Source: Schmidtea nova | Lineage: Eukaryota | NCBI GenBank assembly: GCA_044892505.1 | Contig: CM097883.1 | Location: forward strand, 421,414,001-421,478,000 | Direction of reading: 5' to 3' | Length of the DNA: 64,000 nucleotides | Part shown: positions 27,956 through 61,222 of the stretch, in pieces | Numbering within the stretch: position 1 is the stretch's first letter | Layout of the letters: every line of letters starts with the position of its first letter | Translations under genes and position numbers: made by a program | Notes under the pieces: generated by a model | Databases searched by the model: none | Told to the model about the DNA's origin: nothing | The model's input: only the letters and a program-made list of their open reading frames with translations

Positions 27956-29734
27956 GTTTGCTTTGGCGATTAATCCTGTGTTGGAAGCTGTTTTTGTGAT
28001 GCTTTTGCTATTGGAGAATCATCTGTCAAAATTCTCGCGTATGCAGATGACATCGCAATTTTCGCTAAATCTCCTAATGACCTGCAAAAACTCATTAACA
28101 CTGCTGTCACAACTGCAACCAATATAGGCTTTGAATATCGGCCAGAGAAATGTGCTTATCTGCAACTTCCTAGAATTCACATTGACAGTGAAATTTCAAT
28201 CAATGGAGTTAAAATAAAAAACTACTGTCTAATGAATTTTATCAATACCTAGGTGTGCCAGTTGGCGAAGTAACTGTGATGCTTACGACATTCTACTGGA
28301 GGCACTCAAAGACACCAAAAAACTTGCTGATTCGGATTTGCTTGGGTGGCAAAAACTTAAAGCTTACAAAGTATTTATCCATTCTCGCCTGATCTTCCCT
28401 TTTAGAACCCGTGAAATTAAAACTAGTGCACTTTCAAAATCTTATGATAATAAAAATCTTTCAGTTAACATCACTAGCCAGTTAAGGAAAACCTTATGAA
28501 AAATGCTGATTTTGCCTAATCACTCGGAAGTGAGTTATTTCTACAATTCAACTGAAAATGGGGGAGCAAACTGTGTTGATCTTCTCGACGAATATCACAC
28601 ACAGACTATCACACACTTTTTTCGATTAATCACGTCACAGTGTGACTTTGCAAGGAAAATTAATCTTGACTCTTTAGCTTTTGTCACCAGTCCACGTCTT
28701 GGGATAAAAATTCCAACTCTTCAGGAAAGTTTTGAATAGCTCAATGGAAAAGAGTCTCTTTCCCCCCATTCTGGAAAGAAAACTCGATTTCAAAGAGCTA
28801 GGATTGCGATTGCTTTTTTTGAGAAGACGCACGACATCAACATCACGTTTACTATCACCAATAATGTACTATGTCTCTATATTAACACGAACGCACGTGG
28901 TACATGTATCGTAACTCCGGACGAACGAGAGACCACGGCAAAAGTGTTGCACTTAGCGCTCAATGATTCATACTTGGTTAAATGGGAAAAAAGCTGTGTC
29001 TCAAACATTATCGCTTCAGCTGTAAAGCTTTCACCGACAGTAAACAAAGCTATCTATCGCAGTGATTTATCCGAGTTTGCTTGGAACTTTGTCCATAGAG
29101 CACGCACCAACACTCTTTCCACCCTTGCAAAGCCTTATAATAGTGGAGAGAAAAGACTCTGTCGTCGATGTCATGATGAGGATGAAACCTCATCACATGT
29201 ACTTCAATCGTGCAAAGTTCATATGACTTTGGGCTCTGAACACACGATGCTTGCCTTAAACTCATTTCTAATCATCTCCAACTTAATAAAAACCTAATTG
29301 TTGTTGTCAACCATGCCTGTTCACTTGTTCCGAGTTCTAAAGAGCGGGTGGATTTGCTAATAACTGATGTTCTTAGAAAAAGAATCTTCCTTGTTGACCT
29401 TAAATGTCCGAGTGATTCTTTATGTAACTTTGAGCGTGTAAATTTATTGAATTTGGAAAAATACAACTCTCTGAAAATCGATATTCAAGCTGTCAAGCCA
29501 GACTTTAAAGTTGAACTCGATACTTGCATTATAGGCGCTCTTGGCTCTTTTCCTGTAGAAACTCCTCAGATCCTTCAGAAAATTGGCATAAATAAAGGCC
29601 AGGTGGCTGGGTTATTAAAAGAGTGTGCAATTAGTAATATTGCACACTCGGCAAAACGATGGTACTTCCACAAGAATGGTACACTGCCAATTTTCGAAAA
29701 CGAGGAGCAATTCATTCGAATTAACAACAACTAA
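27956..29734 (+). mobile_element. Inverted copy of the 3' half of the same RLE retrotransposon
   Basis: Begins at FALAINPVLEAV and ends at NNN-TAA (29732-29734). Shares two frameshifts and a TGA with the left copy. Has its own ~10-bp deletion and TAG. Confidence 0.95.
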
Positions 29735-43469: not shown

Positions 43470-46400
43470 TTATCTGAAGACATAAAATTCGTTTTTTTAA
43501 ATTCTATTACTTTATTACAATTTCTAAATTAAAACAAAATATTTGTTTTTAATTTATTTGAAATATTAATTACAAGATAATTAATATTCCAATATAACTC
43601 CTATCCAAGATTCATTGCGTCTGCTGCTCGTTTTCTACACACGGCTTGAGTCTGTCAATTGAAATTCTCTTTATAGATCCATCCAGATTGATTATCATCG
43701 TATTTTTGTCGGATGATCTTTCTATAACATTATATGGTCCTGTGTACGGATTCTCGAGTGTTTTTCTGAATTCGTAGCGCAGTCAAACCTTACTACAACT
43801 CGAGAGAAGTTTATTGATGTATGTAGCTTATTTCTGTTTTGAACACGGCGCATCCTCTTCTCCATTTTCATCTATTAGCTTCTGAATTGATTCAATATCT
43901 TCTTCGTCGCATGGAATTTGTTAAGTGATTACAAAATCTCCTGGAAGTCTGGTTGTTTGTCCAAATGTGAGTTTGGCCACCGATGGTTTGCCGCCTGATC
44001 TCTTACAGTTGCGAAGGCTTAAAAGAATCTTTGGAAGGTCTTCAGCCCATGTTCTTGAAGCATTATTTGAATGCGCTCGAATAGAGTTTTTTATTGATCT
44101 ATGCCATCTCTCTATTTTACCATTTGATTGAGGGTGATATGTAGTCGTTCTATGTCTTTCAATTCCTTTTTCGACACAAAATTGTCGAAATTTCTCTGAC
44201 TCGAATTGCGTTCCTTGGTCTGTAATGACAATGTGTGGTGTACCAAATATACTTATCCACTCCCTTTCAAATGTTTTCAGGATCATGTCGGATGTTATAT
44301 CATAGAGAGGAATTGCTTCGACCCACGATGTTCCTCTGTCTATCATGGTTAGAATATATCGTTTATTGTTTACAACTGGAAGGGGTCCGACGATATCCAG
44401 GTGAACTGTATGAAATCTTCCTTTTGTTGGTATTTCTCCAATGGGTGTTTTGGTATGTCTAGATATCTTGGCTACCTGACATTTCTGGCATTGTCTGCAC
44501 CACTCTCTTATATCGCTCTTCATTCTTGGCCAGACATAACGTTCTTTCATTAAATGTATGGTCGATTTGTCTCCTGGGTGAGATATTCGGTGAATTCTTT
44601 CAAATTCCGGAAATCTGTACATCTTTGGTAGAATCACTCTTGGGCTTCCTTGGGATGTATCGACTAATATGTTGTTTTCAGTGATTGCTAGTTCAAGTTC
44701 GCCATCCTTTAATACTTGTAGTATCTGGTATTTGGATTGTTCTTCTATTAAGTCTGAGGTTGATATTCCGATTAGATGTATACTGGTTTCTTTTTGTGAT
44801 GCTTTTATGTTGGGTCTTGACAGTATATCAGCTACCACGTTGTCGACTCCTTTTACGAATTCCCATTGGAAGTCAAATCGGCTTAGAAATTCGATGGTTC
44901 TTTCATATTCAGAACTCGGAGTAATGGTTTGTGGTCAGTCATGACAGTGAATTTTGATTCGTCTAAATAATGTTGAAAATGTTTAATTGATAAATGAACT
45001 GCCAGAAATTCCCGGTCAAATGTCGAGTATCTTGTCTCGGCATCCGTTAATTTCCTAGAGAAGAAGGCAATGGGTGTATAGTTTTCACTATTTCTCCTCT
45101 GGTTTAAACTTGTTCCTACAGCAATGGAGGAAGCGTCTGTCTGTAATATGAACGGCAGTTTTTCATCAGGCTATTTGAGATGTGTCATGGAGTTAAGTTG
45201 TCGTTTTGCTTCTTCAAACGCATCATTGTGGACCTTCAACCACAAATAGTTATTTCTATCTTTAATCGATGATGATACCAATTGATGTAGGGGAGATAGG
45301 ATCGATGATAGATGTGGTATTTGCCAAAGATAGTATCCTATGCTCCCGATGAAGCGCATGAGTTCCTTTAAGTTGTCGGGTTTTTAAGTTGTCATGATAG
45401 CATCAACCCTATGTTGTGTTGGCCTGATTCTTGATGCCGAAATATTAAATCCTAAGAAATCGACATTTGTTTTCTCCCATTCACATTTGTCTTTATTGAT
45501 TTTCAGGCCAGCGACGATTAGTGTTTGCATCACACTCTTTACATTGTCACGATGTTCCTCCACATTGTTCGAGAATATCAGCACATCATCAATGTAATTG
45601 AGACAATATCGCCTCGTCTTGGACAGCGTATCGTCCATGTATCGATGAAACGTCTGTGATGCATTCCTAAGGCCGAACCGTATCTTTACATACTCGAATA
45701 GGCAAAAAGCGGGATCACCGCTGTCTTCGAGGTATCCATGGGATGGATTGGGATTTGGTGGTATGCCTTCTTCAGATCTAGTTTCGTGAAATATTTGCTA
45801 CCAGATATTCTGTCTAAAATATCATTAATTCTAGGTAATGGATATTTATCTGCTTTCGTAATTTCATTCAAGAGTCGGTAATCTCCACAAGGCCTCCAAG
45901 TGACATCTCCATTTTTTACTATTACTAGTGATGAAGCCCATTCGCTTTTGCTGTGGCTTATGATCCCAGCAGCCAGAAGTCTGTCAAATTCTTCCTTAGT
46001 GGCTTTGAGTTTGTCCCCGAAGAGTCTTCGTTGACGTTGGGCTACTGGAATTCCGGAGGTGTTTATACGAAGATTTGTTTTTGGTTTTATAATGTTTTGC
46101 TCGGAACTCTCGGATTCTGCTATGTCTCGGTAGAATTGAATGTTTGATACATATATTTTCTTGCTTGTACTTTCGTTGGATTTTGATTTGAATGTTGTTC
46201 TGGTACTGCAATCTACATTTATTCTAACGTGCGATAGAAACTCAGCGCCTATTATTAGCTTTGTGACGCTTGCTACGGTAAACGTCCATTTAAATTTGTT
46301 ACTGAAACCATCAATTGTGAAATGTAACGTTTTCTCACCACTACACTGTATCGGAGTGTTGTTCGCAGATACTAAACATCGATTGGTGCTGCATTTGCTG

Positions 46401-47426
46401 TCGGCCTCAAATGAAGACATTGGTATTACACTGATGTCAGCTCCAGTGTCAATAAGAAAGTCAATGAATCGGTCCTTAAGTTTCGCTTTGATATTAAAAA
46501 TATTTGAGTTGGTGCCTGAGTGTGTTGATACTATTCGGCAGGTTTCATTCCTCAGGTTTAATGAAACCTCTTCCCATTTCCCTGGTCCTGATTGAATGTT
46601 TTATTGGTCCAACAGCAGGGCTGCTGACATTTTCTTGCTCGCTCTCCAAACTTCTTGTGATAGATTCTGGTTTGTTGATTGCTCGTCTGAGTGCATTCAG
46701 TTCTTCACGCAGCATGGAAATCTCGCTGAGTATTTTTGTCTTCTTCTGTTACGGCTGTTATGTTGTTTCTCTGACTAGTACATTTGTTGAAGGCTATGAT
46801 TTTGTCAACGAGCATGGCTAAAGAGTGGAAATTGTTCTCTGGTTGAGATAATAGATAGGATTGTATGTCCTTTGGTAGAACTCCACAAAAGTATTTCACG
46901 AGCGATTGTGCCATTGTGATCAATAGTATGATCAAAGAGCTGAAGATGTATTTAGATTTGACGAAGGGCCTCCGTTGGCATTCTATCTCTCAAAGATTAT
47001 TCCATCATGATGTCTGAAAGGGAGATATTGTTGTTCTGCGTGTAGTCATCAATGATAGCTGCTTTGAGATTGCTGTATGCCAGACGGTTATTGCCATCTA
47101 GCAAATGTTGATATTTTGAGAGTGTTTCAGATGGCAGGTTGCATATCAAGTGGAAATATTTAGTGGCCTCCTCTGAGATTCTTGATAATTGAAAACTGGC
47201 ATTGACTTGAGCAAACTATAGATTCCAATTGGCGAAGGGTGCTGGAATCTTGACAGAAACATTTGCGAGTTGAAGGCTGCTGACACCATTTATTATTAGT
47301 TTATCTGAAGACATAAAACTCGTTTTTTTAAAATGCTATTATTTTATTACAATTTCTAAATTAAAACAAAATATTTGTTTTTAATTTATTTGAAATATTA
47401 ATTACAAGATAATTAATATTCCAATA
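43470..47426 (-). mobile_element. Ty3/Gypsy LTR retrotransposon (gag-PR-RT-RNaseH-IN), decayed, flanked by ~125-bp direct repeats at 43470-43594 and 47301-47426
   Basis: Gag W.L.FAQVNASF...EEATKYFH; protease FLIDTGADIS; RT WRPCGDYRLLN, LDLKKAYHQIP, YIDDVLI; RNase H LQTDAS, AFFSRKL, TDHKP; integrase HLDIVGPLP, TDQGTQF, YHPQSNGKIERWH; tail YTGPY. Multiple frameshifts and stops. Confidence 0.93.
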
Positions 47427-48131
47427 ATGTACAAAGAAGTAAGCATGAAATAACAAAAAAATGAACCAAAAACAATAGAAATTATGCTAGGAAGCGAAAT
47501 TCAAATAATTTTAAAGATATTTTAAAAGTTTAAAATGAAGAAATTTTCAAGGAAAAACATTTAGAATTAATTTTAAAATTAAAATAGCTTAAATGTAATA
47601 TTAAATTTAAATTTTTGAATGAATAAAAATTTTTTAGACCTAAATATTAAATTATTTTGTAAAATAAATAAAATTATTTAGCAAATGTGAAAAACGACCT
47701 TAAATTTAGTTTTAACTGATCAACAAAAATACATGGACAAAAGTGGTATATAAACTGAACTTTTGTCATTAGTTCATCATAATTTTGGATATAAAAGTTT
47801 AAATTTAATATTTGAGGTCTTAAATTTTGCAATTTTGAAAAAAACATTGTCAAAACTATTTAAAATCATACATGATCAGAATTAAAAATACTTTAAAGAA
47901 TAAACTCAATCCACTTTTATTTATCTTTTGTGATACTCAATAAATTATAGTTCCGAATCAGTCAGCGCTGACTTTTTGCGAATATCCACTCATTGTGCTA
48001 CAATACCAACGTTGTTAGCGACAAGGGGCCAGTGGTAATGTGATTATATAGTTACTAGAAGATCCCGGTGACTTAGTTACACTCCAATAACCCATCATTA
48101 TTAATTTAATTGATTTATATAATCAGTGTAC

Positions 48132-48485
48132 TCAAGCAAACACACAATAACAAACATTGACTCCAGATATGTTGGTATAAGTTTTGGATTGTATGTTTTG
48201 TGCGTGTGTTGTTGGTTGATAATTGGGATGTTGTGCGTTATGTGGTGGCAATTCGTTGTTGGGATATCTTTCGACGTTCTGAGGGAAAGAGTTGTGAGGT
48301 GTATGTGCTGCGTTAACGGTGGAGGGTAGTGGAAGGGCTGCGTAAATATCTGTGCGTGGTTTATGTGGTTGGAATGCGTGAATGCGGTCAGCGATCTTAG
48401 CGAGGTGATATGGGTCTTCAGAGTTGACCAATGCCAGCGAAGCTTGTAGATGGTAAGGGAGTGCAGAAAGGAATTGATGGGTCAA
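48132..48485 (-). pseudogene. Gypsy-type Gag C-terminal remnant
   Basis: FLSALPYHLQASLALVNSEDPYHLAKIADRIH resembles the Gag segment LP..VQ..L......LA..ADKI, which is also seen at ~46800-46900. Confidence 0.55.
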
Positions 48486-48575
48486 TAATGTATTTATAAA
48501 ATAATATTAAAAATATATATAAAATTATCGTAAATATAAATAAAATTTTATTTATAGTAATATAATAAATGATAC

Positions 48576-49191
48576 GTATTGCCATATTATTCGAATTGGT
48601 AAGCATATTGTCATTCAGTTGATTGCTTGGAATTGACGCTGCTGTCGTATTGTTAATTCCTGACATGTCGCTTTGGTGATTAGAAGCATCCGTATTCATC
48701 GAACTATTCGGTTGAGATATTTTATCTTGTTGAATTTGCATTTGTACATTAACATTTGGTGCTGCTCGATGTTGATAATTCATTTGGTTAACATTCCATT
48801 GTATAGGCCCATTATTGGTAGTATTATTGGGAAATTGTTGATCAGAATATGATTGATATTGTGAAAACACAATTTCATGAGAGCCTGGAAACTGATGCTT
48901 CGACTGAGACATTTGATTCGGTTGAATATGATTTGTAATGAAATTGTTGGACTGGTGATTAATCATTGATTGAGAAGACTTAGATTTTTGATGTGACTGA
49001 AACATTGTACTGTTATTATGCTGCTGTTGTTGTGGCTGTTGCTGTGATTGATGCTGTTTAATATGGATGTTTGACGAATGACGATAAATGGAATATGATG
49101 AATTGTACTGTAGCATATTTTGCTTCTGAAAGTTATCAGTTCTGAAACCAATTGTGGGGCTTGGAATTTCGGTTGCCCATACAGCATTTGA
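48576..49191 (-). CDS. Putative Gln/Asn/Ser-rich low-complexity exon of a host gene
   Basis: About 205 open codons inside ORF 48418..49236, with a gtgttacag acceptor and a gtatca donor at the composition boundaries. Confidence 0.5.
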
Positions 49192-49425
49192 CTGTAACAC
49201 AAATATGAAAAAGAAATGATATTGCTTTAGGTGCAAAAATAAATCAAAATAAAATAACCAGTTAACTATTTATTATTCGAATAAAACTGCTTCTTTTCTT
49301 TATAAACTTCAGAGTTTGCGTTGGGCTTTAATTGGGGCTGCTTACATTTATTTAAATTCCTATTCTCTAAGTCTCTTATGTCATTTAAAAAACTATATTT
49401 CTTGGTAAATATATAAATATTTTTA

Positions 49426-49464
<39 letters not shown>

Positions 49465-49467
<3 letters not shown>

Positions 49468-50192
49468 TATGTTATTAATTTTGTTGTTAACGTTTGTTAA
49501 TAATTGTTAATGTTTGTTAAATAATGTTATTTATTATGTAGTTTTATGTTCAAGAGAAAATTATTGAAGAGCCCGAGAGAGTCTCCGATTTAAGTTGGGA
49601 CACTCGAGGGACTTGCCGTGTATTTGTGTGCCTGTAGGTGTGATTGGGTGCGTGAGTATATTGTGTATGCTGCTTACCGATAAAATAAAACAATAACAAA
49701 ATAACAAAAATTTAACACTTTTATTAAGAATTTACAAAGTATAACAACTCACTATTTTGTAAGGAAATTTGATTAGGGATTAAAGTTTCTTTCGTGAATG
49801 GAATACCATTACAATAGTTCGTTTTGTTTACTTTTGGTTATTTATTTCTTTAATTTAGCCGGCTTAGTTATTTTTGATTAGAAAGTTCATAAATTCTTTT
49901 GCATTTATCAATTTTTGTTTTCCTTCGTATTTCTTCTGTTAAATGATTTCTCTTCTTATTTCTCTTTTGATATTTCTTCTGATATAGTTTTTTGTCTGTT
50001 TCTGATTTTGGGGATTTAATAATTTTTAATGTCCTTGGTAATTTATTTTTTTAAATCCATTTGTTTTTTATTGATTTTTTAATTTCATAATTTCATAATT
50101 TTAATTTCTTCTCGCATTTACATATATTATTCCTACTTAATAACATTTCCTCGACCACAGCAATGCAAAAATAAAAAGGGGGTTATCCGGTG
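49465..50192 (+). repeat. Hairpin repeat family, copy D (hairpin at 49572-49610, G-tract at 50178-50182)
   Basis: Collinear with copy A and begins at a (TA)n tract. Confidence 0.75.
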
Positions 50193-50297
50193 TCTATATA
50201 CATGTTTCAATTTATGTGTTGTGTTATATGTTTATGTATTATTTTTAACAACTCACGCTAAAAATATAAAAATATACAAAGATCATATGTTTGCATG

Positions 50298-51817
50298 CTA
50301 TGTAGGGTTGTGTTGTTTGAGGCATTGGCTGTAAAGCTTTTTGTATGGGGTGATTATCGCGTTTTTGTCGAATTCTTTTTTTGCGTTTCTACTGTTGAAT
50401 GTTATATGCTTTTTCTTTGTTTGGATTTCGTTGTGTGAACGGTTGCATGGTTGGTTGCATGGAGGTTGTTGATTGTGGTGGTATGGTTTCGTTCTGCGTA
50501 TATTTATTCTTCTTTTGTTGTTGTTTTTTATTATTGTGGCCACGTTTTTGTTGATTTCGAGTATTTTGAATGGGCCTTCGTATTCGTCTTCGGAACCTTT
50601 TGTGTATGGCTTCTTTATTAGTAAATAATCGGTTGTTAGTATTATCTTGCCATCGTTCTCTGAGTTTGGTCTCTTTTTTAGTATTCCTTTTAATTTGTTT
50701 TCGATGTTCTCACTGTTTTTAGTTGTTATTTGTTTATTTATTTGTTTGTTGTTTTTTATGTTTGCTTTCTCGTCGAAAGTTGCTGGTATGATAAGTTTGT
50801 CGGCTTTCTCCAGTAGTTTGTTTATTTCTGGGCCATGATTCAGGTTTTGTTTTGTTTTGTTGTTTGTTGGACCCATTTGGATAACACCAATCTTTATTTT
50901 TGAATTGGTTGTCGCCATGGTTTTGACAGTTTCTTTGTTTGTGCTTGTATTTTCAGTTAGTGTTTTATTTCGGCAGTCTACTGTGAGGTTATAGTGTGCC
51001 AGGAAGTCAGCTCCTATTATGGATTGTTGAACATCAGCGATTATGAATGTCCAACTGCATTTCTTTGAATTAATTGTTAGAGTTAGGGTGTGTTCACCAA
51101 ATGTTTTTATGCTTGTGCCATTGGCTGCAGTTATATGTTTTTCTGCGTTTTTTGAGTTTTTGTGCGGGTAGTGGGGTAATAAGGAGATCACAGAACCTGT
51201 GTCAATTAGGAATTCTGTGTTATTTGAGTGCACCATAAATGTATTGTTTTTGTCACCAAATGTGTGTGCGACTACTGGCAATGTTTCCAGTTTTTTTGTA
51301 TTTGTTTTGTCAAATGTAGGAGCAACTAATGGCAAACTTTTCAATTTTTCTGAATTGTTTTCGTTATATCTGCATGGTTTTGTGCATTTGAATGCCTTTT
51401 CTCCAAATTTGCTATGGAAGTAACACCATTCTCGGTTTGATATTCTGATTTCTGGTTTCCAGAATTTTTGTTTATTTTCAATTTCTTTGTTTTATTGTTG
51501 TAAAAGTCTTGGTGTTGATTTCCCGAGTTTGGCTTTGGCCTATTGAACCTATACTGTGCTTGATTTGGACAGTAGTTTTGTTTTAGGATTTTTTCTTTAA
51601 TTTCTTTTAGTTCTGATTTGAAACGTTTATTTTCAGTTGCTATTTTGTCAAGTTGACTTATTAAAATACTAAGAATTTTATTTGTTTCGCTAAATTCTGT
51701 TCTTTCATTTTCCTCCTCATTTTGTTCATGGTTGGATGTTTTATTTTTGTTGTCATGAGTACTGTTTATACTGGGGTAATTTCCTGCATTTATTTTATCG
51801 ACCATGTCTGTCAGCAT
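50298..51817 (-). mobile_element. Internally deleted Gypsy-like element: Gag, aspartic protease and integrase C-terminal tail; no RT, RNase H or IN core
   Basis: WCYFHSKFGEKAFKCTKPC (51411-51428, in frame with the 348-aa ORF), FLIDTGSVISLLP, IIGADFL, then YEGPFKILE...INIRRTKPY with no RT motifs in between. Confidence 0.8.
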
Positions 51818-52266
51818 TTTATTTTCTGTTTCGTTATTTTTAGTTGCTGGCTTGTAACTTGTGTTGCGTGTAAGTACAAATAATTCAAAACAGAAAATTC
51901 AAATAACTAACAAACAAAACTAATTAATTTTTTAAACTTTTATTATTAAAAATTTGTAAACACGTACTCACGTAATTTCGCAAATAAAGTAGACCTTTTT
52001 TTAAAGTTCGATTTTAGGAATGTTTTGAAGTTTCTTTAATATTTCCTTGGATATATTTTTTCTTTTATATAATTGCTCTAATTCTCTTTTAGCTCTCTAG
52101 CTGCTTGGTATTTGTTCCTTTTTTTACTCGGCTCGTTGGATATTTTAATTCGTCAAAAACGATGGTTGGATGTTTTATTTTTGTTGTCATGAGTACTGTT
52201 TATACTGGGGTAATTTCCTGCATTTATTTTATCGACCATGTCTGTCAGCATTTTATTTTCTGTTTC
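51728..52266. repeat. 105-bp direct repeat (51728-51832 and 52162-52266)
   Basis: ATGGTTGGATGTTTTATTTTTGTTGTCATGAG...TTTTCTGTTTC occurs twice. Confidence 0.9.
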
Positions 52267-53383: not shown

Positions 53384-54694
53384 ATATATGTTATTCATGA
53401 TTATATATATTCTTATTCAATATTATATATGTATATATATGTATATATATAAAAAATTAAAAAATATGCATAAGAAACCAATAAGAAACACGAATAAACA
53501 TTTAAAACTTTGAATATATCGATGCCACATTTTTTTTAAAGTTTTTAACACTCCAAAATTTTGTTCAAAAAAAGGCACCTGTGTAGGCCAACTCCATGAA
53601 CTCCATCATATGTACGTAGAATGCATTCATGCCAAGACCAATATCTTCATTCATTTCACCAAAAACTTCCGCAACCAACTGTTTAATATCCAAATTATTC
53701 TGTGGTAGCGGTCTTTTATTGAAATATCTTGCCTTGAAAACACCGAAGCATTCTTCAATTGGATTTAATGCAGGGGAATATTGGGGAATAAAATCAAAAG
53801 CAATGTTTTTTAAGTTAAAAAACTCTCTCATCGAAGCAGTTTTGTGAAATCTTGCATTGTCCATCAAGACAATTCGATTTCTAAAATCAATACCTTCTTC
53901 CACCGCCTCATTCATGAAATCTTGAAAACTACACGCATTATAAGCTCCGTCTATTAATTTATATTTTAATATACGTTCATTAGAAATCAAAACCATGCAG
54001 CTGACATTCATTCCTCTTGGTTTTACAAGAACATTTACCAGCGTATTCTTCGGTGAATATCCATAATTCATCATTGTGTGGAGATTAAGTCCTGTTTCCT
54101 CGAGATACAATAATTTGGAGTTCGGAGTATTCCTATATTTTATCGAAAAGGCCTTTCGTTCATTAATTATTCACAAATCCGTCACTTTTTCGTATACTTT
54201 CTTTACCCTTTTCCTTGTTATCTCTACATATTTCAATTTCCGCGAGATCGTTCTCTGAGATGTCAGAATATTATTTGCTTCCAATTTTTTCCTCATTCCT
54301 CTTTGCGTTAAAAGTAGGTCGTCTTGGATAATTCTCTGCAACTGCAATAATATGTTGCCATCGTTTACAACGGTTCTGTCCTTCTTCTTAACCAAAGTCG
54401 ATAAATTAATGTTTTGAAACTTACATCTATCAATCTCCACTAAACAGTTATGGTAGATCGATTCAGATTCCTGGCGATTTTTACAAATGAATCGCCATCA
54501 TTACGCATCGCATATATTGTTTTGAGATCTTTGCTTGTCGTTCGCGGTTTGCGTCTCCTGGTCTCGTTGTCGTCGTTTTCCATTGTGAGGTTTTATTATA
54601 TGTAGTAAATAAATTCAAGTATATATATATTTATGAATACTATATATATAATATTGAATACTATATATATAATATTGAATAGAATATATATAAT

Positions 54695-54705
<11 letters not shown>
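53384..54705 (-). mobile_element. IS630/Tc1-type transposon, DD34E-spaced transposase (53565-54583), frameshifted, with AT-rich TIRs
   Basis: YLEETG, MDNARFH and YSPALNPIEE, with 34 residues between D and E. TATTCAATATTATATAT (~53413-53430) is inverted relative to the repeated ATATATAATATTGAATA (~54645-54705). Confidence 0.85.
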
Positions 54706-54787
<82 letters not shown>

Positions 54788-55304
54788 TTAGGTAGCGTCA
54801 GGTCTCGATCCGTATGAGTTATCGCGCGTTTTTGGCGCCATTTTTAAAGTGTGTTTTGTTTAAATGTTTGGAATTTTTATTATTTTTTTTATTAATAATT
54901 AAATTTTTTTTTTAATTTAAATTATATCTTTTTTATTAATTAATTTTTTTTTTAATTTGTTATTTTTTTTTAATATTATTAATTTACTTTTGTTAGTATA
55001 ATTTATTATTGATATTATAATTTTTGAAACACTTCAATGATAAACGTTCAATGAAAGCACTACTCAAAATATTATGAGCATATAACAAAATGAGACAATT
55101 CTGCACAACAAAAAACATTACATGGTGAAATACGATAAATATTAAACTAATTATTTATTACAATTATTATTATTAATATTACTATTATTTCTATGACATA
55201 ACCACAGTTTCTAAAAACTATTACCCAAATTATAAAAACAGACTGAAACTAATCTGTACAATATATAACTAAATAAATGAAAAAACAAAGATTTTCAACA
55301 AATT

Positions 55305-56793
55305 TTATTTAAATAAAACTGTTTCTTCTTCAGTTTGATCTTGGAATTGGTGATCTGGATTGATTCTTGAATCGGTATGTTGAAAAAAAACCAAGTCACC
55401 TCCCATATAATGGCCATATGCCAAGTTTTTATTTTTCGCAACCCATTTCCTTTTATCATCTGCGTTTGTCAGTGCAGTCTTTTCATTTTTAATAGTAAAA
55501 AGTTGATGATTTTTACTTGTGATTCTCGTTTGGGGAACAGAAAATATTTGGTTATTATTAAAACAGTCCAGGTACGACTGATGCTTTATGTCAGTACCCG
55601 CTAATGTTGCCCCCTTAGCTTTATTAGTTTCCTCGTCACCTAAAAGACTATAACATTTAGGTCTCAGAAACACCCACTCCTCGTATTTAAGCCCTTTATT
55701 CTCGTCTTTGAACTTGCCAATGACAGAATCAAGGTTCCTACTGTATAATGGGTGATTCGGATCATAATTAGAAGTGTCAAGTAAGTTATCTCTTATCATG
55801 GCCGGTAAAAGAATATCAAGCTTACAATTTCTAATCTCAAGAAAAAATGAATCGGTGTCACCAGCTACGATGTTGATTTCACAGTTGAATTCGTTACGAT
55901 ATTTTTGTAACTCTTCATACTGCAGCTGGTACATTCTAAGTTTAGATAGATCCAGTACAGTTTGACCAATGTAACTAAGTCTATCCAAACACACCGAATC
56001 TTTATTCAGTAAGACGGCAACCAAATCATCGTCAATTTCGAAAGTCCTTTTGAAAGTTGGCTTAGAAGTATATGTAATCAGCCTAGAAGCCGAATTACAT
56101 AATCTTAAATTCATGCGCTTTTTAAGATTCTCTACGGTTTTACCGTAGAGACTATTATTTAATAATTTATAATAATTTTTACCCAGAGCATTACTTGATT
56201 CTGCTCTAAATCTGGTATTGGTATCGATATAATCCTTAAAAATACATGCTTGTTTAAATTTAATTGCCCTATGGACATGAGTTATTTTTACTCCAAGAGA
56301 AAGAAAAAGTTTGAGAAGTCTCCAATGAAGAACATAGTTCTTCTTGGGATAATGCGTAAGCATCAACTTCTCAACCTTTGAGCCAGGTGGACACATCTTT
56401 TCAGCGGCAACTGGCAAATCATCCAGCTTGTCGTGAATCGAATCAGGAATTTCTAAATCGACTTCTAATGTAAATCCAAATGTTAATACTTCTAAATCAG
56501 CAGATTCACAGTAATAAATTATTTTATTTTATTTTTCCCTATCAGTTACCCATTTAAATTCTTTATAAGGTAGTTTTTGGCTTAAGGCCCACCCATATAA
56601 ATTATTTATATCTATATAAAGAAGCTCAGTGTCGTCGGAGGATACTACATGGTGTTTGTTAACAAATGTTAACCCACCACGGATCCCCCCTTCGAAAAAA
56701 TTATACATCTCCATATCTTGAAGCAACTCGATAGGAGATTTCAAAGTCATCAAAGCTGAATTCCATGACATGCCTGGATTTCCCAAGAAATTA
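55305..56793 (-). pseudogene. Inverted copy of the 3' part of protein-primed polB
   Basis: Motif A DINNLYG, motif B KLLNNSLYGK, motif C GDTDS. One in-frame TAA shared with the plus-strand copy. Confidence 0.9.
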
Positions 56794-56927
56794 TATATCT
56801 TATTTATATATTTTAATTTAATTATATATTTTAATGATTTTTTGATAAATTTAAAGATATTTCATATTAAGGTAAATTTTATGCGAATTATTGTAAGTCG
56901 TCAAATCATAACGACTGCCACAAGTTA

Positions 56928-59900
56928 ATGGAGCGATACTATCGTCTTTTAAATAATCAAGTCACCTTCTATTTATGTCCAACATGCAAGAGCGCCCAAC
57001 ATATAAATTACATTGATTTTTATTTCCAACATTATCTCCATTTAAATCAATTCTCATGTACTAAGAAAAGTCTTTTCGCATTAATTAATAAAAGTAAACG
57101 ACGAAATGTTACTGTTTGTCCTAAACCGGCTAAAATAAATGTAATATCTGATGATGAAGATGTCCATTCATCAAATGACGATGTTTTAGTTATTCCTAAT
57201 TTACATGTTGTTCAATATGGTGGTTCTGTTGAACCTTTGGTTAAATATAATTTGAAAAAATCGCATGCAATTGTTAAAATGGATGTGGATTCTTTAAATT
57301 TAAATAAATAAATTATTCCTTCGCCTTTATTAAATAAATTTAATTCAGTTATTTCCAAAATGGGATATGTAAAAGTACAATTTTGCATTGATGTGGAATT
57401 TGAAAAGAATAAGCAATTTCAATCTTTTATAATATCAAATTCCGCAAAGCCAATGAGTGATACCTTTTTAGATGAAGGTATTGCTCTATTAAGTGAAAAA
57501 ATGACTAAAGTCTGTGAAAATGGCAGCAATTGGTCAATTAATAAAATTAAAGAAATAAGCTTTAAACTTACAAAATATTCGCAAATAAGTAGATTGAGTG
57601 GTCACGGTTCTTGTTCAACCCCGGCATCATTAAATGCAAAACGTTGCACTGTCAATGTAAAAAAATACCGATAACTTTGTTTTATATATAGCATTTTGAC
57701 AATTTTAAAATACAAGGATGTGAAATCTAATAGAAGTAAGTCTTATAATTATAATCCCTCAGACCTTGTGTTTGATCCTTCTGATTTTCCAATGAAATTA
57801 TGTAATATCCCCAAATTTGAAGCGAAAAACCCTGTACTGGCTATAAATATCCTTTCATATGACGAGTATGATCTAAATAATATTAATGAGGAGGAGGAAG
57901 TCATGAAACATCCATTTGTAGATATTATTCATAGGTCAAAGGTTGTAAGTGGCACTCCAATTAATTTGATTTTGTTAGAGGAAAATGACTCTTTTCATTA
58001 TATTGCAGTTACCAATATTAATAGACTTTTGAATTGTGACACTCTTTCTGTTACTGATGTTCAAATAAGGTGCACTTGGTGCGAGCGTTGCTTGAATGGT
58101 TTTAGATTGACTGAAGCTTTTGAGAAACATCAGGCTTTATGCACAAAAAATCAGTTAGGTACAACTTTGTACACTTTACCTTCAGATAAGAATTTGGAAT
58201 TTAAAGATTGGTCAAAAATTGTTACCCCTCCTTTCGTCGTATATGCCGATTTTGAGGCTGTTTTACCCAAGGACGATAAGTATTTTCAACGTCACTTACC
58301 TATTTCTGCTGGCTTGTTGCTTATTAATAACTTTACTGGCGAAAGATCGTATAAAAGCTTTTATGGTCTTAATTGTGTAGAAGAGTTTTTGACCGAAATC
58401 AATGATATAGAAGAAAATGTAGTTTTGCCTTACTTTATAAATAATTCCAAAAAGAAAATGGAATATCTTTCTCCTGCACAAATAAGATCATTCCGTAGTT
58501 CTACAATTTGTTATTTGTGTAATAAACCTTTTAGAAATCCGGTTAAAGATCATGACCATTATACAGGTAAATACTTGGGTGCGGCTTGCTCTAAATGCAA
58601 TTTTTCTCGTCAAATAAGATTCATCATGCCAGTCATATTTCATAATTTAGGCGGATATGATTTGCATCATATCCTCAAGTATGGTTTAAATAAATTCGTT
58701 AAATGGGATATAAGTTGTATTCCTACTACAAGTGAAAAGTTTTTGACTTTATATGCAAGAGTTGATAGTTTAACTATTAAATTTATCGATTCTTGCCAAT
58801 TTGTAAGCTGTAGCTTAAACGATGCTGTAAAGACTTTAATAGATTTTCCTCTTACTTCATCCGAATTTATTGGGACTATTATTACTTCCAAAGGCATATT
58901 CCCATATAATTTTGCAACTTCTTTAGAGGTTTTACAAAATACATACGAGTTTCTACCGATTTGGGAAGGAGTTAAAATCGACGAGTATGAAAAAGCTCAA
59001 CATATATGGGATGAATTTAATCGTGAAACATTGTTTGATTATATGATGCTATACCTGAAATTGGATGTTTTCTTACTTGCCGACTTTTTTCAGCAATTTA
59101 GAGCAAAATCCATTGAACATAACCGACTTGAGCCTCTTAATTTCTTGGGAAATCCAGGCATGTCATGGAATTCAGCTTTGATGACTTTGAAATCTCCTAT
59201 CGAGTTGCTTCAAGATATGGAGATGTATAATTTTTTCGAAGGGGGATCCGTGGTGGGTTAACATTTGTTAACAAACACCATGTAGTATCCTCCGACGACA
59301 CTGAGCTTCTTTATATAGATATAAATAATTTATATGGGTGGGCCTTAAGCCAAAAACTACCTTATAAAGAATTTAAATGGGTAACTGATAGGGAAAAATA
59401 AAATAAAATAATTTATTACTGTGAATCTGCTGATTTAGAAGTATTAACATTTGGATTTACATTAGAAGTCGATTTAGAAATTCCTGATTCGATTCACGAC
59501 AAGCTGGTAGATTTGCCAGTTGCCGCTGAAAAGATGTGTCCACCTGGCTCAAAGGTTGAGAAGTTGATGCTTACGCATTATCCCAAGAAGAACTATGTTC
59601 TTCATTGGAGACTTCTCAAACTTTTTCTTTCTCTTGGAGTAAAAATAACTCATGTCCATAGGGCAATTAAATTTAAACAAGCATGTATTTTTAAGGATTA
59701 TATCGATACCAATACCAGATTTAGAGCAGAATCAAGTAATGCTCTGGGTAAAAATTATTATAAATTATTAAATAATAGTCTCTACGGTAAAACCGTAGAG
59801 AATCTTAAAAAGCGCATGAATTTAAGATTATGTAATTCGGCTTCTAGGCTGATTACATATACTTCTAAGCCAACTTTCAAAAGGACTTTCGAAATTGACG

Positions 59901-60625
59901 ATGATTTGGTTGCCGTCTTACTGAATAAAGATTCGGTGTGTTTGGATAGACTTAGTTACATTGGTCAAACTGTACTGGATCTATCTAAACTTAGAATGTA
60001 CCAGCTGCAGTATGAAGAGTTACAAAAATATCGTAACGAATTCAACTGTGAAATCAACATCGTAGCTGGTGACACCGATTCATTTTTTCTTGAGATTAGA
60101 AATTGTAAGCTTGATATTCTTTTACCGGCCATGATAAGAGATAACTTACTTGACACTTCTAATTATGATCCGAATCACCCATTATACAGTAGGAACCTTG
60201 ATTCTGTCATTGGCAAGTTCAAAGACGAGAATAAAGGGCTTAAATACGAGGAGTGGGTGTTTCTGAGACCTAAATGTTATAGTCTTTTAGGTGACGAGGA
60301 AACTAATAAAGCTAAGGGGGCAACATTAGCGGGTACTGACATAAAGCATCAGTCGTACCTGGACTGTTTTAATAATAACCAAATATTTTCTGTTCCCCAA
60401 ACGAGAATCACAAGTAAAAATCATCAACTTTTTACTATTAAAAATGAAAAGACTGCACTGACAAACGCAGATGATAAAAGGAAATGGGTTGCGAAAAATA
60501 AAAACTTGGCATATGGCCATTATATGGGAGGTGACTTGGTTTTTTTTCAACATACCGATTCAAGAATCAATCCAGATCACCAATTCCAAGATCAAACTGA
60601 AGAAGAAACAGTTTTATTTAAATAA
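56928..60625 (+). pseudogene. Protein-primed family B DNA polymerase (~1230 codons) with an embedded endonuclease-VII-like motif; interrupted
   Basis: Exonuclease motifs VYADFE and FHNLGGYD; CYLC...KDHDHYTGKYLGAACSKCN; KGIFPY; DINNLYG; KLLNNSLYGK; GDTDS; RPKCYS; KAKG. In-frame TAA at 57309, 57672 and 59399, and a 1-nt G-run frameshift near 59241-59245 (G5 here vs C6 in the mirror arm). Confidence 0.92.
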
Positions 60626-61138
60626 AATTTGTTGAAAATCTTTGTTTTTTCATTTATTTAGTTATATATTGTACAGATTAGTTTCAGTCTGTTTTTATAA
60701 TTTGGGTAATAGTTTTTAGAAACTGTGGTTATGTCATAGAAATAATAGTAATATTAATAATAATAATTGTAATAAATAATTAGTTTAATATTTATCGTAT
60801 TTCACCATGTAATGTTTTTTGTTGTGCAGAATTGTCTCATTTTGTTATATGCTCATAATATTTTGAGTAGTGCTTTCATTGAACGTTTATCATTGAAGTG
60901 TTTCAAAAATTATAATATCAATAATAAATTATACTAACAAAAGTAAATTAATAATATTAAAAAAAAAATAACAAATTAAAAAAAAATAATTAATAAAAAA
61001 GATAATTTAAATTAAAAAAAAAATTTAATTATTAATAAAAAAATAATAAAAATTCCAAACATTTAAACAAAACACACTTTAAAAATGGCGCCAAAAACGC
61101 GCGATAACTCATACGGATCGAGACCTGACACTACCTCC

Positions 61139-61222
<84 letters not shown>

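What the first reader, a model, noticed from the sequence alone, without database searches (positions are those of the whole stretch)
54784..61142. Minimal polB-only Polinton-like element with 2-kb terminal inverted repeats that include coding sequence
Seen: both ends begin with AG in an AGT/AGG-rich, GC-rich ~60-bp tip inside (TA)n. The mirroring stops at the (TA)n, and the flanks beyond are unrelated. The only gene is pPolB, with no integrase, capsid, ATPase or protease. The two tips differ at 3 of 19 nt, while the 370-aa ORFs are identical. Known: Polintons have AG...CT termini and replicate by protein priming, and panhandle intermediates of such linear genomes can copy one end onto the other. 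Inference: a defective copy-back/panhandle derivative of a Polinton or adintovirus-like genome that integrated into a TA repeat, or a small self-replicating pPolB element family.
Basis: partly seen in the sequence, partly recalled or inferred. Interest (0 to 1): 0.75.

Follow-up and report, generated by a model that had tools for sequence, protein, structure and literature searches.

The report
Giant palindromic polymerase-only Polinton satellites
This is a broken, centre-deleted copy of an abundant mobile element that is one 13-14 kb mirror image carrying only a DNA polymerase gene in each half; it likely borrows integrase from a virus-like Polinton in the same genome and likely forms by folding back on an internal copy of its own end.

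Summary
The 2-kb mirror is real, but the window holds a decayed derivative. The full family (at least 316 mirrored centres) is a 13.3-14.2 kb palindrome. Its two 6.3-7 kb arms each hold a whole pPolB gene, it has no integrase or capsid gene, and it has 6-bp target duplications, so (TA)n is not the target.

The likely helper is a co-resident ~15-kb Polinton with ~96% identical pPolB DNA and matching tips. Half-length monomers also insert. An internal tip copy lies ~350 bp from the monomer's end. In 24 palindromes, mirror identity stops at that tip (0/240 mismatches just outside, 86/408 inside). This fits fold-back self-priming (inferred).

The same centre cassette carries a second pPolB (60% identical). 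Non-coding palindromes of similar size also occur, which hints at capsid size selection (untested). They lack inner tips, which counts against the cassette being needed.

No description turned up in nine literature searches. The scan noted a similar hairpin satellite in another genome (e1-7882696). Extrachromosomal forms, expression and packaging are not shown.

The parts
54784..61142 (.). Whole insertion (6,359 bp): centre-deleted, broken copy of the palindromic pPolB family
   Evidence: about 94% identical to full-length copies
54784..56793 (+). Left arm remnant (outer tip, A/T-rich stretch, 3' part of polB on the minus strand)
54784..54850 (+). Left outer tip (T1); three differences from the right tip
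55305..56793 (-). 3' fragment of pPolB (polymerase motifs A-C), with the premature stop shared with the right arm
56794..56807 (.). Deletion junction in A/T-rich sequence; replaces the rest of the left arm, the centre cassette, the 144-bp arrays and the upstream region of the right polB
56808..61142 (+). Right arm remnant (4.3 of about 6.5 kb)
56928..60625 (+). Full-length but broken protein-primed PolB gene (three stops, one frame change)
   Evidence: fold of an open family copy matches phi29 polymerase
61076..61142 (-). Right outer tip (T1)
54699..54783 (.). (TA)n left flank; target duplication not informative here
61143..61210 (.). (TA)n right flank

Best explanation
The element is a broken, centre-deleted copy of a family of 13-14 kb palindromes that carry only a protein-primed DNA polymerase gene in each arm and likely move as satellites of a co-resident Polinton. 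Shown: the architecture (outer tip, outward-pointing polB, 144-bp array, inner tip, ~300-bp loop, then the mirror), 6-bp target duplications, half-length monomers inserted with their own duplications, and a ~15-kb Polinton with matching tips and nearly the same polB. Inferred steps: (1) free linear copies replicate by protein priming from the AGTAGG ends; (2) on a displaced monomer strand the 3' end pairs with the inner tip ~350 nt upstream and is extended, copying one arm into its mirror; (3) the helper's integrase inserts the product; (4) doubling may be favoured because it brings the molecule to about helper length, for packaging. The window copy later lost its centre and decayed.
For: Fifteen full-length copies of 13.25-14.2 kb. 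Of 32 elements with both ends read, 26 have a perfect 6-bp duplication (2 of these in TA tracts, uninformative), 4 have one mismatch and 2 have none. Two copies on different contigs are 99.98% identical over 13.3 kb with different duplications. Helper d1 shares 95.7% polB DNA identity and 94 bp of tip, with integrase, ATPase and protease domains and a DJR-like capsid lead. Three monomers have duplications; their 3' ends are predicted to pair flush with the inner tip (-31 to -38 kcal/mol, against -11 to -18 with the outer tip). Boundary test on 24 centres: 0/240 mismatches in the 10 nt outside the inner tips (shuffled mean 22.3) and 86/408 at tip positions 10-26. In 13 elements, 149 private alleles are in both arms and 36 in one; no arm difference is shared by two elements. 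Arms are always sisters in the tree. T2a is internal in 518 of 543 hits; T2b is followed by a mirror in 316 of 356.
Against: Non-coding palindromes keep 99.3-99.97% identical arms without inner tips and share a fixed 274-bp loop, so arms can stay alike without this cassette. Tip mismatches (86) are below the shuffled level (133), so some conversion reaches into the tips. Three of 27 centres were dropped as rearranged or mis-paired. Family-1 polB genes intermix with helper polB genes in the tree, so their low dN/dS (0.16) may be inherited by recombination. Monomers could be products rather than precursors of dimers. No free DNA, RNA or particle was observed.
Confidence: 0.7

Rival explanations
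1. Helper-dependent satellite as above, but the palindrome arose once or rarely and replicates whole. The arms are kept alike by repair in the hairpin stem or by gene conversion after insertion; inner tips are relics and monomers are breakdown products.
For: Non-coding palindromes lack inner tips yet have near-identical arms and a fixed loop. Inner tips are partly homogenised. Monomers are rare: at most 40 of 356 centres.
Against: Identity drops at the tip boundary although the tips lie within the stem. Monomers end at the last base of T2b with 6-bp duplications. The cassette is kept with two different polymerases.
Confidence: 0.22
2. A self-sufficient pPolB replicon (plasmid-like) that enters chromosomes by host repair or another enzyme, with no Polinton helper.
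For: Both ORFs are open in 9 sampled palindromes with all catalytic motifs. For the second polymerase, 30 of 30 top loci have the cassette upstream and none a helper context.
Against: Clean 6-bp duplications like those of the helper, shared tips, and hybrid helpers carrying the satellite's end (2 of 10).
Confidence: 0.04
3. A one-off copy-back or panhandle derivative of an ordinary Polinton.
For: The window junction was found at one place among 40 scored.
Against: Both ends are the satellite's T1 type, not the helper's repeat. Similar centre-deleted copies with other junctions occur.
Confidence: 0.02
4. Assembly or fold-back read artefact.
For: Palindromes are a known long-read artefact (general knowledge). 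No long read could be laid; the runs held are short contigs from one study.
Against: Hundreds of copies with a conserved asymmetric loop, distinct target duplications, imperfect arms and single-arm insertions. A contig spans the window junction.
Confidence: 0.02

Closest known systems
Polinton/Maverick elements (definition read as passages in 10.1101/2023.08.22.554363 and PMC6431247)
   Same: pPolB, AG...CT ends, 6-bp target duplication; full copies fall in the 13-25 kb range
   Different: No integrase, capsid, ATPase or protease; repeats of about 6.5 kb rather than 0.1-1.5 kb; polB in two copies; internal tip copies
Butterfly polintons with ~2-kb gene-bearing terminal repeats (10.1101/2025.02.07.637071, passages)
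   Same: Coding sequence duplicated inside long terminal repeats
   Different: Described there as full-length polintons whose repeats hold hexon and adenain; not whole-element palindromes or polymerase-only satellites
AAV snapback subgenomes (PMC8235507, abstract) and snap-back defective genomes of RNA viruses (search listing, PMC6140465)
   Same: Helper-dependent palindromic subgenomes made from one end of the parent
   Different: Here they are integrated, heritable, in hundreds of copies, with a conserved cassette and open polymerase genes
Tetrahymena rDNA palindrome formation (as cited in PMC3734650, passages)
   Same: A short (42-bp) inverted repeat near a free end primes fold-back synthesis of a large palindrome; here about 45 bp
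   Different: A host developmental process; here the repeat is a copy of a mobile element's own terminus
Yeast pGKL1-derived hairpin plasmids (Kikuchi 1985; only the citation seen in PMC4443254, content recalled)
   Same: Recalled: hairpin and palindromic derivatives of a protein-primed linear replicon
   Different: Cytoplasmic, not integrated, no target duplications

Membership tests
Polinton/Maverick (autonomous) | Protein-primed PolB | tested here: met
   PF03175 on window pieces; motifs; best structural matches phi29 polymerase and adintovirus/bidnavirus-type PolB. Broken in the window copy. The full protein had no PF03175 hit.
Polinton/Maverick (autonomous) | Retroviral-like integrase | tested here: not met
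   No such ORF in the window element or in full-length palindromes
Polinton/Maverick (autonomous) | Capsid, ATPase and protease genes | tested here: not met
   present only in the helper
Polinton/Maverick (autonomous) | 5-8 bp target duplication | tested here: met
   26 of 32 perfect 6 bp; uninformative for the window copy
Polinton/Maverick (autonomous) | Terminal repeats of 100-1500 bp | tested here: not met
   6.3-7 kb in full copies, 2 kb in the window
Non-autonomous derivative / satellite of a Polinton | Ends and sequence shared with a co-resident autonomous element | tested here: met
Non-autonomous derivative / satellite of a Polinton | Dispersed insertions with the helper's target duplication, without own integrase | tested here: met
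Non-autonomous derivative / satellite of a Polinton | Mobilisation by helper proteins in trans | not testable with these tools
   inferred only
Snap-back defective interfering genome | Palindromic subgenome derived from one end of the helper | tested here: met
   the array, loop and outer 370 bp do not match helper d1
Snap-back defective interfering genome | Packaged by the helper and interfering with it | not testable with these tools
   only the size match

The most novel reading that the evidence does not exclude
Polintons of this host carry a set of heritable snap-back satellites. A portable cassette (promoter region, 144-bp array, internal terminus) turns any captured Polinton end plus polymerase into a self-priming hairpin replicon that cycles between monomer and palindrome, as parvovirus rolling-hairpin intermediates do. 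Doubling to helper length lets it be packaged. The ~13-15 kb size convergence would then be genomic evidence that animal Polintons form particles.
Probability: 0.4. Interest if true: 0.9.

Novelty: new variant of a known kind. Interest (0 to 1): 0.78.

Why it matters
Polinton replication and particle formation are mostly inferred from gene content. Here, natural satellites record the replication intermediates: which ends work, where a displaced strand primes, and what length is selected. They are young (99.98% identical pairs) and abundant, so free hairpin or linear forms should be detectable by plain DNA methods. The family also puts hundreds of 13-kb near-perfect palindromes into a genome, which matters for genome stability, small-RNA production and repeat annotation. 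Pipelines that require integrase plus polymerase would miss it.

Tried and rejected
TA-repeat targeting: rejected. A freely moving ~390-bp central mini-element: not seen; all 40 scored centre hits kept both flanks, though ranking favours these. Monomers ending at the inner tip T2a: not supported (518 of 543 internal; 4 of 5 exceptions checked were point changes in arm context; the fifth had no recognisable other end). Relatives in public collections: single-protein scans found nothing; alignment scans gave 91 loci, none with a palindromic polB, but such contigs are short and would collapse palindromes. No RNA holder was listed; this is no evidence on expression. A sequence search of solved structures found nothing. 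The atlas search of the polB N-terminal part gave only unnamed clusters, so a fused terminal protein is not shown. A junction microhomology could not be fixed, because the nearest sampled relative is 4.5% away. No earlier notes exist for this genome. The Kikuchi 1985 paper is not held. Supplements of bioRxiv preprints are closed and were not read; repeat libraries in them could hold these elements.

Full report
Observation. The window lies at G000:C2:421414001-421478000 in a 1.25-Gb genome; the host was not established. The mirror runs 54784-56793 against 59138-61142, with 12 differing columns, three of them in the tip. The only gene is a pPolB, starting at 56928 and broken by stops near 57309, 57672 and 59399 and a frame change at 59231-59246. 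The last stop is present in both arms. The junction occurred once among 40 scored of 2167 candidates. It is spanned by one low-depth 107-nt contig without differences (one study, possibly not independent).

The family. The outer-end motif has 789 + 782 exact hits, some of them on hybrid helpers. Relatives picked from paired hits are 13.25-14.2 kb palindromes with arms of 6.3-7 kb at 97-100% identity. Each arm runs: outer tip (T1), polB pointing outward, upstream region, 144-bp array, inner tip. A ~300-bp asymmetric loop lies between the two inner tips, T2a and T2b. Nine sampled copies have both 1236-7 aa ORFs open with exonuclease and polymerase motifs. The model (mean pLDDT 87) matches phi29 polymerase best among solved structures and adintovirus/bidnavirus-type PolB among viral models. 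Of 32 elements with both ends read, 26 have a perfect 6-bp target duplication, 4 have one mismatch and 2 have none; elements with an unresolved end were not counted. At least 316 centres are followed by a mirrored arm. Shorter copies with asymmetric central deletions and other junctions are common; the window copy is one of these.

The helper. The genome holds several Polinton groups (126 capsid-domain matches scored). One of them, d1 (L092-L093, 14,751 bp, duplication intact), has a polB 95.7% identical in DNA to the palindrome arm. Its ends match T2b over 94 bp and T2a over 45 bp. It encodes integrase, ATPase and adenain-like protease domains. A 406-aa ORF is a capsid lead (13 of 30 atlas hits in clusters where PF21738 is on 30% of members; no Pfam hit). 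Its capsid DNA has 40 of 40 scored hits at 100%. Of 10 such loci fetched, 8 had both tips with a 6-bp duplication (14.8-15.2 kb), and 2 of these carry the satellite's T1 end. Satellite and helper polB genes intermix in the tree, while the two arms of an element are always sisters. That integration uses this integrase is inferred.

How the palindrome likely forms. Monomers (T1, polB, array, T2a, loop, T2b) are inserted with their own duplications at three loci (L129, L131, L184). A fourth (L182) lacks one. More free T2b ends were seen in 4 of 5 fresh loci checked. Among the first 30 T2a loci (28 centres), 21 were mirrored, 4 ended free at T2b and 3 were deleted. T2a is almost never an end. In monomers the 3' end is predicted to pair flush with T2a, much more stably than with T1. 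Extension from there would copy everything upstream of T2a and leave the two tips as they were. The data show this pattern. In 24 centres (3 of 27 dropped as rearranged or mis-paired; 11 of the 24 were picked by likeness to one copy), the 10 nt outside the tips have 0/240 mismatches against 22.3 after shuffling, and tip positions 10-26 have 86/408 against 132.8. The 13 unselected centres gave 0/780 over 60 nt outside and 62/221 inside. Private alleles are mostly in both arms (149 against 36; window copy 34 against 5), and no arm difference is shared by two elements.

Results against this reading. Non-coding palindromes (d2, d3, d5, d6, d8: 12.4-14.5 kb, helper tips, duplications in 4 of 5; also a 13.2-kb one at L061-L074) have equally alike arms but no inner tips. 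Palindromes can therefore persist without the cassette, and monomers might be resolution products. Selection on satellite polB is only moderately supported. Mean dN/dS among family-1 dimers is 0.16 but is confounded by exchange with helpers. The second polymerase has pN/pS 0.48 for shared variants and 0.79 for singletons in 18 distinct open copies of 30.

Modularity and size. The same centre cassette carries a second pPolB (1244 aa, 60% identical) with another outer end. That end has 301 + 290 hits, and 30 of 30 top loci have cassette sequence upstream. All intact palindromes, coding or not, fall at 12.4-14.5 kb beside a ~15-kb helper. Selection for packaging length is my inference and is untested; the sample was partly chosen by tip spacing.

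Known systems and novelty. The family works like a non-autonomous Polinton derivative and like a snap-back defective genome, but it fails Polinton membership on integrase, capsid and repeat length. Gene-bearing 2-kb repeats are reported for butterfly polintons (passages). pPolB with repeats but no integrase is noted in C. elegans remnants (passages). Fold-back priming by a 42-bp repeat is cited for Tetrahymena rDNA (passages). AAV snapback genomes are described (abstract). A Dugesia preprint mentions Maverick expansion without palindromes (passages). Nine searches (listings, plus the passages named) showed no palindromic polymerase-only satellite. Repbase and subscription journals were not searchable. 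An unchecked note from this scan describes a 14.8-kb hairpin Polinton satellite in another genome; it agrees but is not independent support.

Verdict. Real. The window copy is a decayed member of an apparently undescribed, recently active satellite system. Satellite status about 0.9, recurrent fold-back priming about 0.6-0.7, packaging about 0.4. Interest 0.78.

Noticed in passing
L093:2584-2856 (+), helper d1: The helper Polinton encodes a TATA-binding-protein-like domain (PF00352, E 2.8e-11), beside an unassigned 167-aa ORF.
   Followed up: partly
L094-L097, L100-L103, L106-L107: A family of non-coding giant palindromes built on the helper's other end; d3 and d5 are 99.3% identical; the centre region is 77-81% like the region upstream of polB.
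   Followed up: partly
L061-L062 and L074 (G000:C1:282.33-282.35 Mb): A 13.2-kb non-coding palindrome with a 6-bp duplication, whose ends resemble those of the second-polymerase family.
   Followed up: partly
tips of all families, positions 9-26: Tip sequence after AGTAGG varies in short interchangeable blocks shared among palindromes, monomers and several Polinton groups.
   Followed up: no
L014:8930-9420: By eye: paired CCAAT boxes, a TATA box and short GT-AG introns upstream of polB, suggesting a spliced leader; absent from the window copy.
   Followed up: no
L093:14-1083: The helper integrase is split in two frames at a place that looks like an intron.
   Followed up: no
L109:687-9166: A polB-less 8.5-kb helper derivative keeping capsid genes, with a 6-bp duplication.
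   Followed up: partly
L005-L006 and L008-L009: Large insertions inside palindromes: a 1494-aa ORF that looks like a NeSL-type LINE, and a 3442-aa frame; names by resemblance only. Palindrome I sits inside another Polinton's polB.
   Followed up: no
window 53565-54497 (-): A broken Tc1/IS630-like DDE transposase just left of the element (PF13358).
   Followed up: partly
window 25091-29294 and 43924-51898: LINE-like and LTR-retrotransposon-like ORF pieces, by resemblance only.
   Followed up: no
L318 (IMGVR_UViG_2588253625_000002): A 6.5-kb contig with 274-bp terminal repeats, a pPolB and three other ORFs.
   Followed up: no
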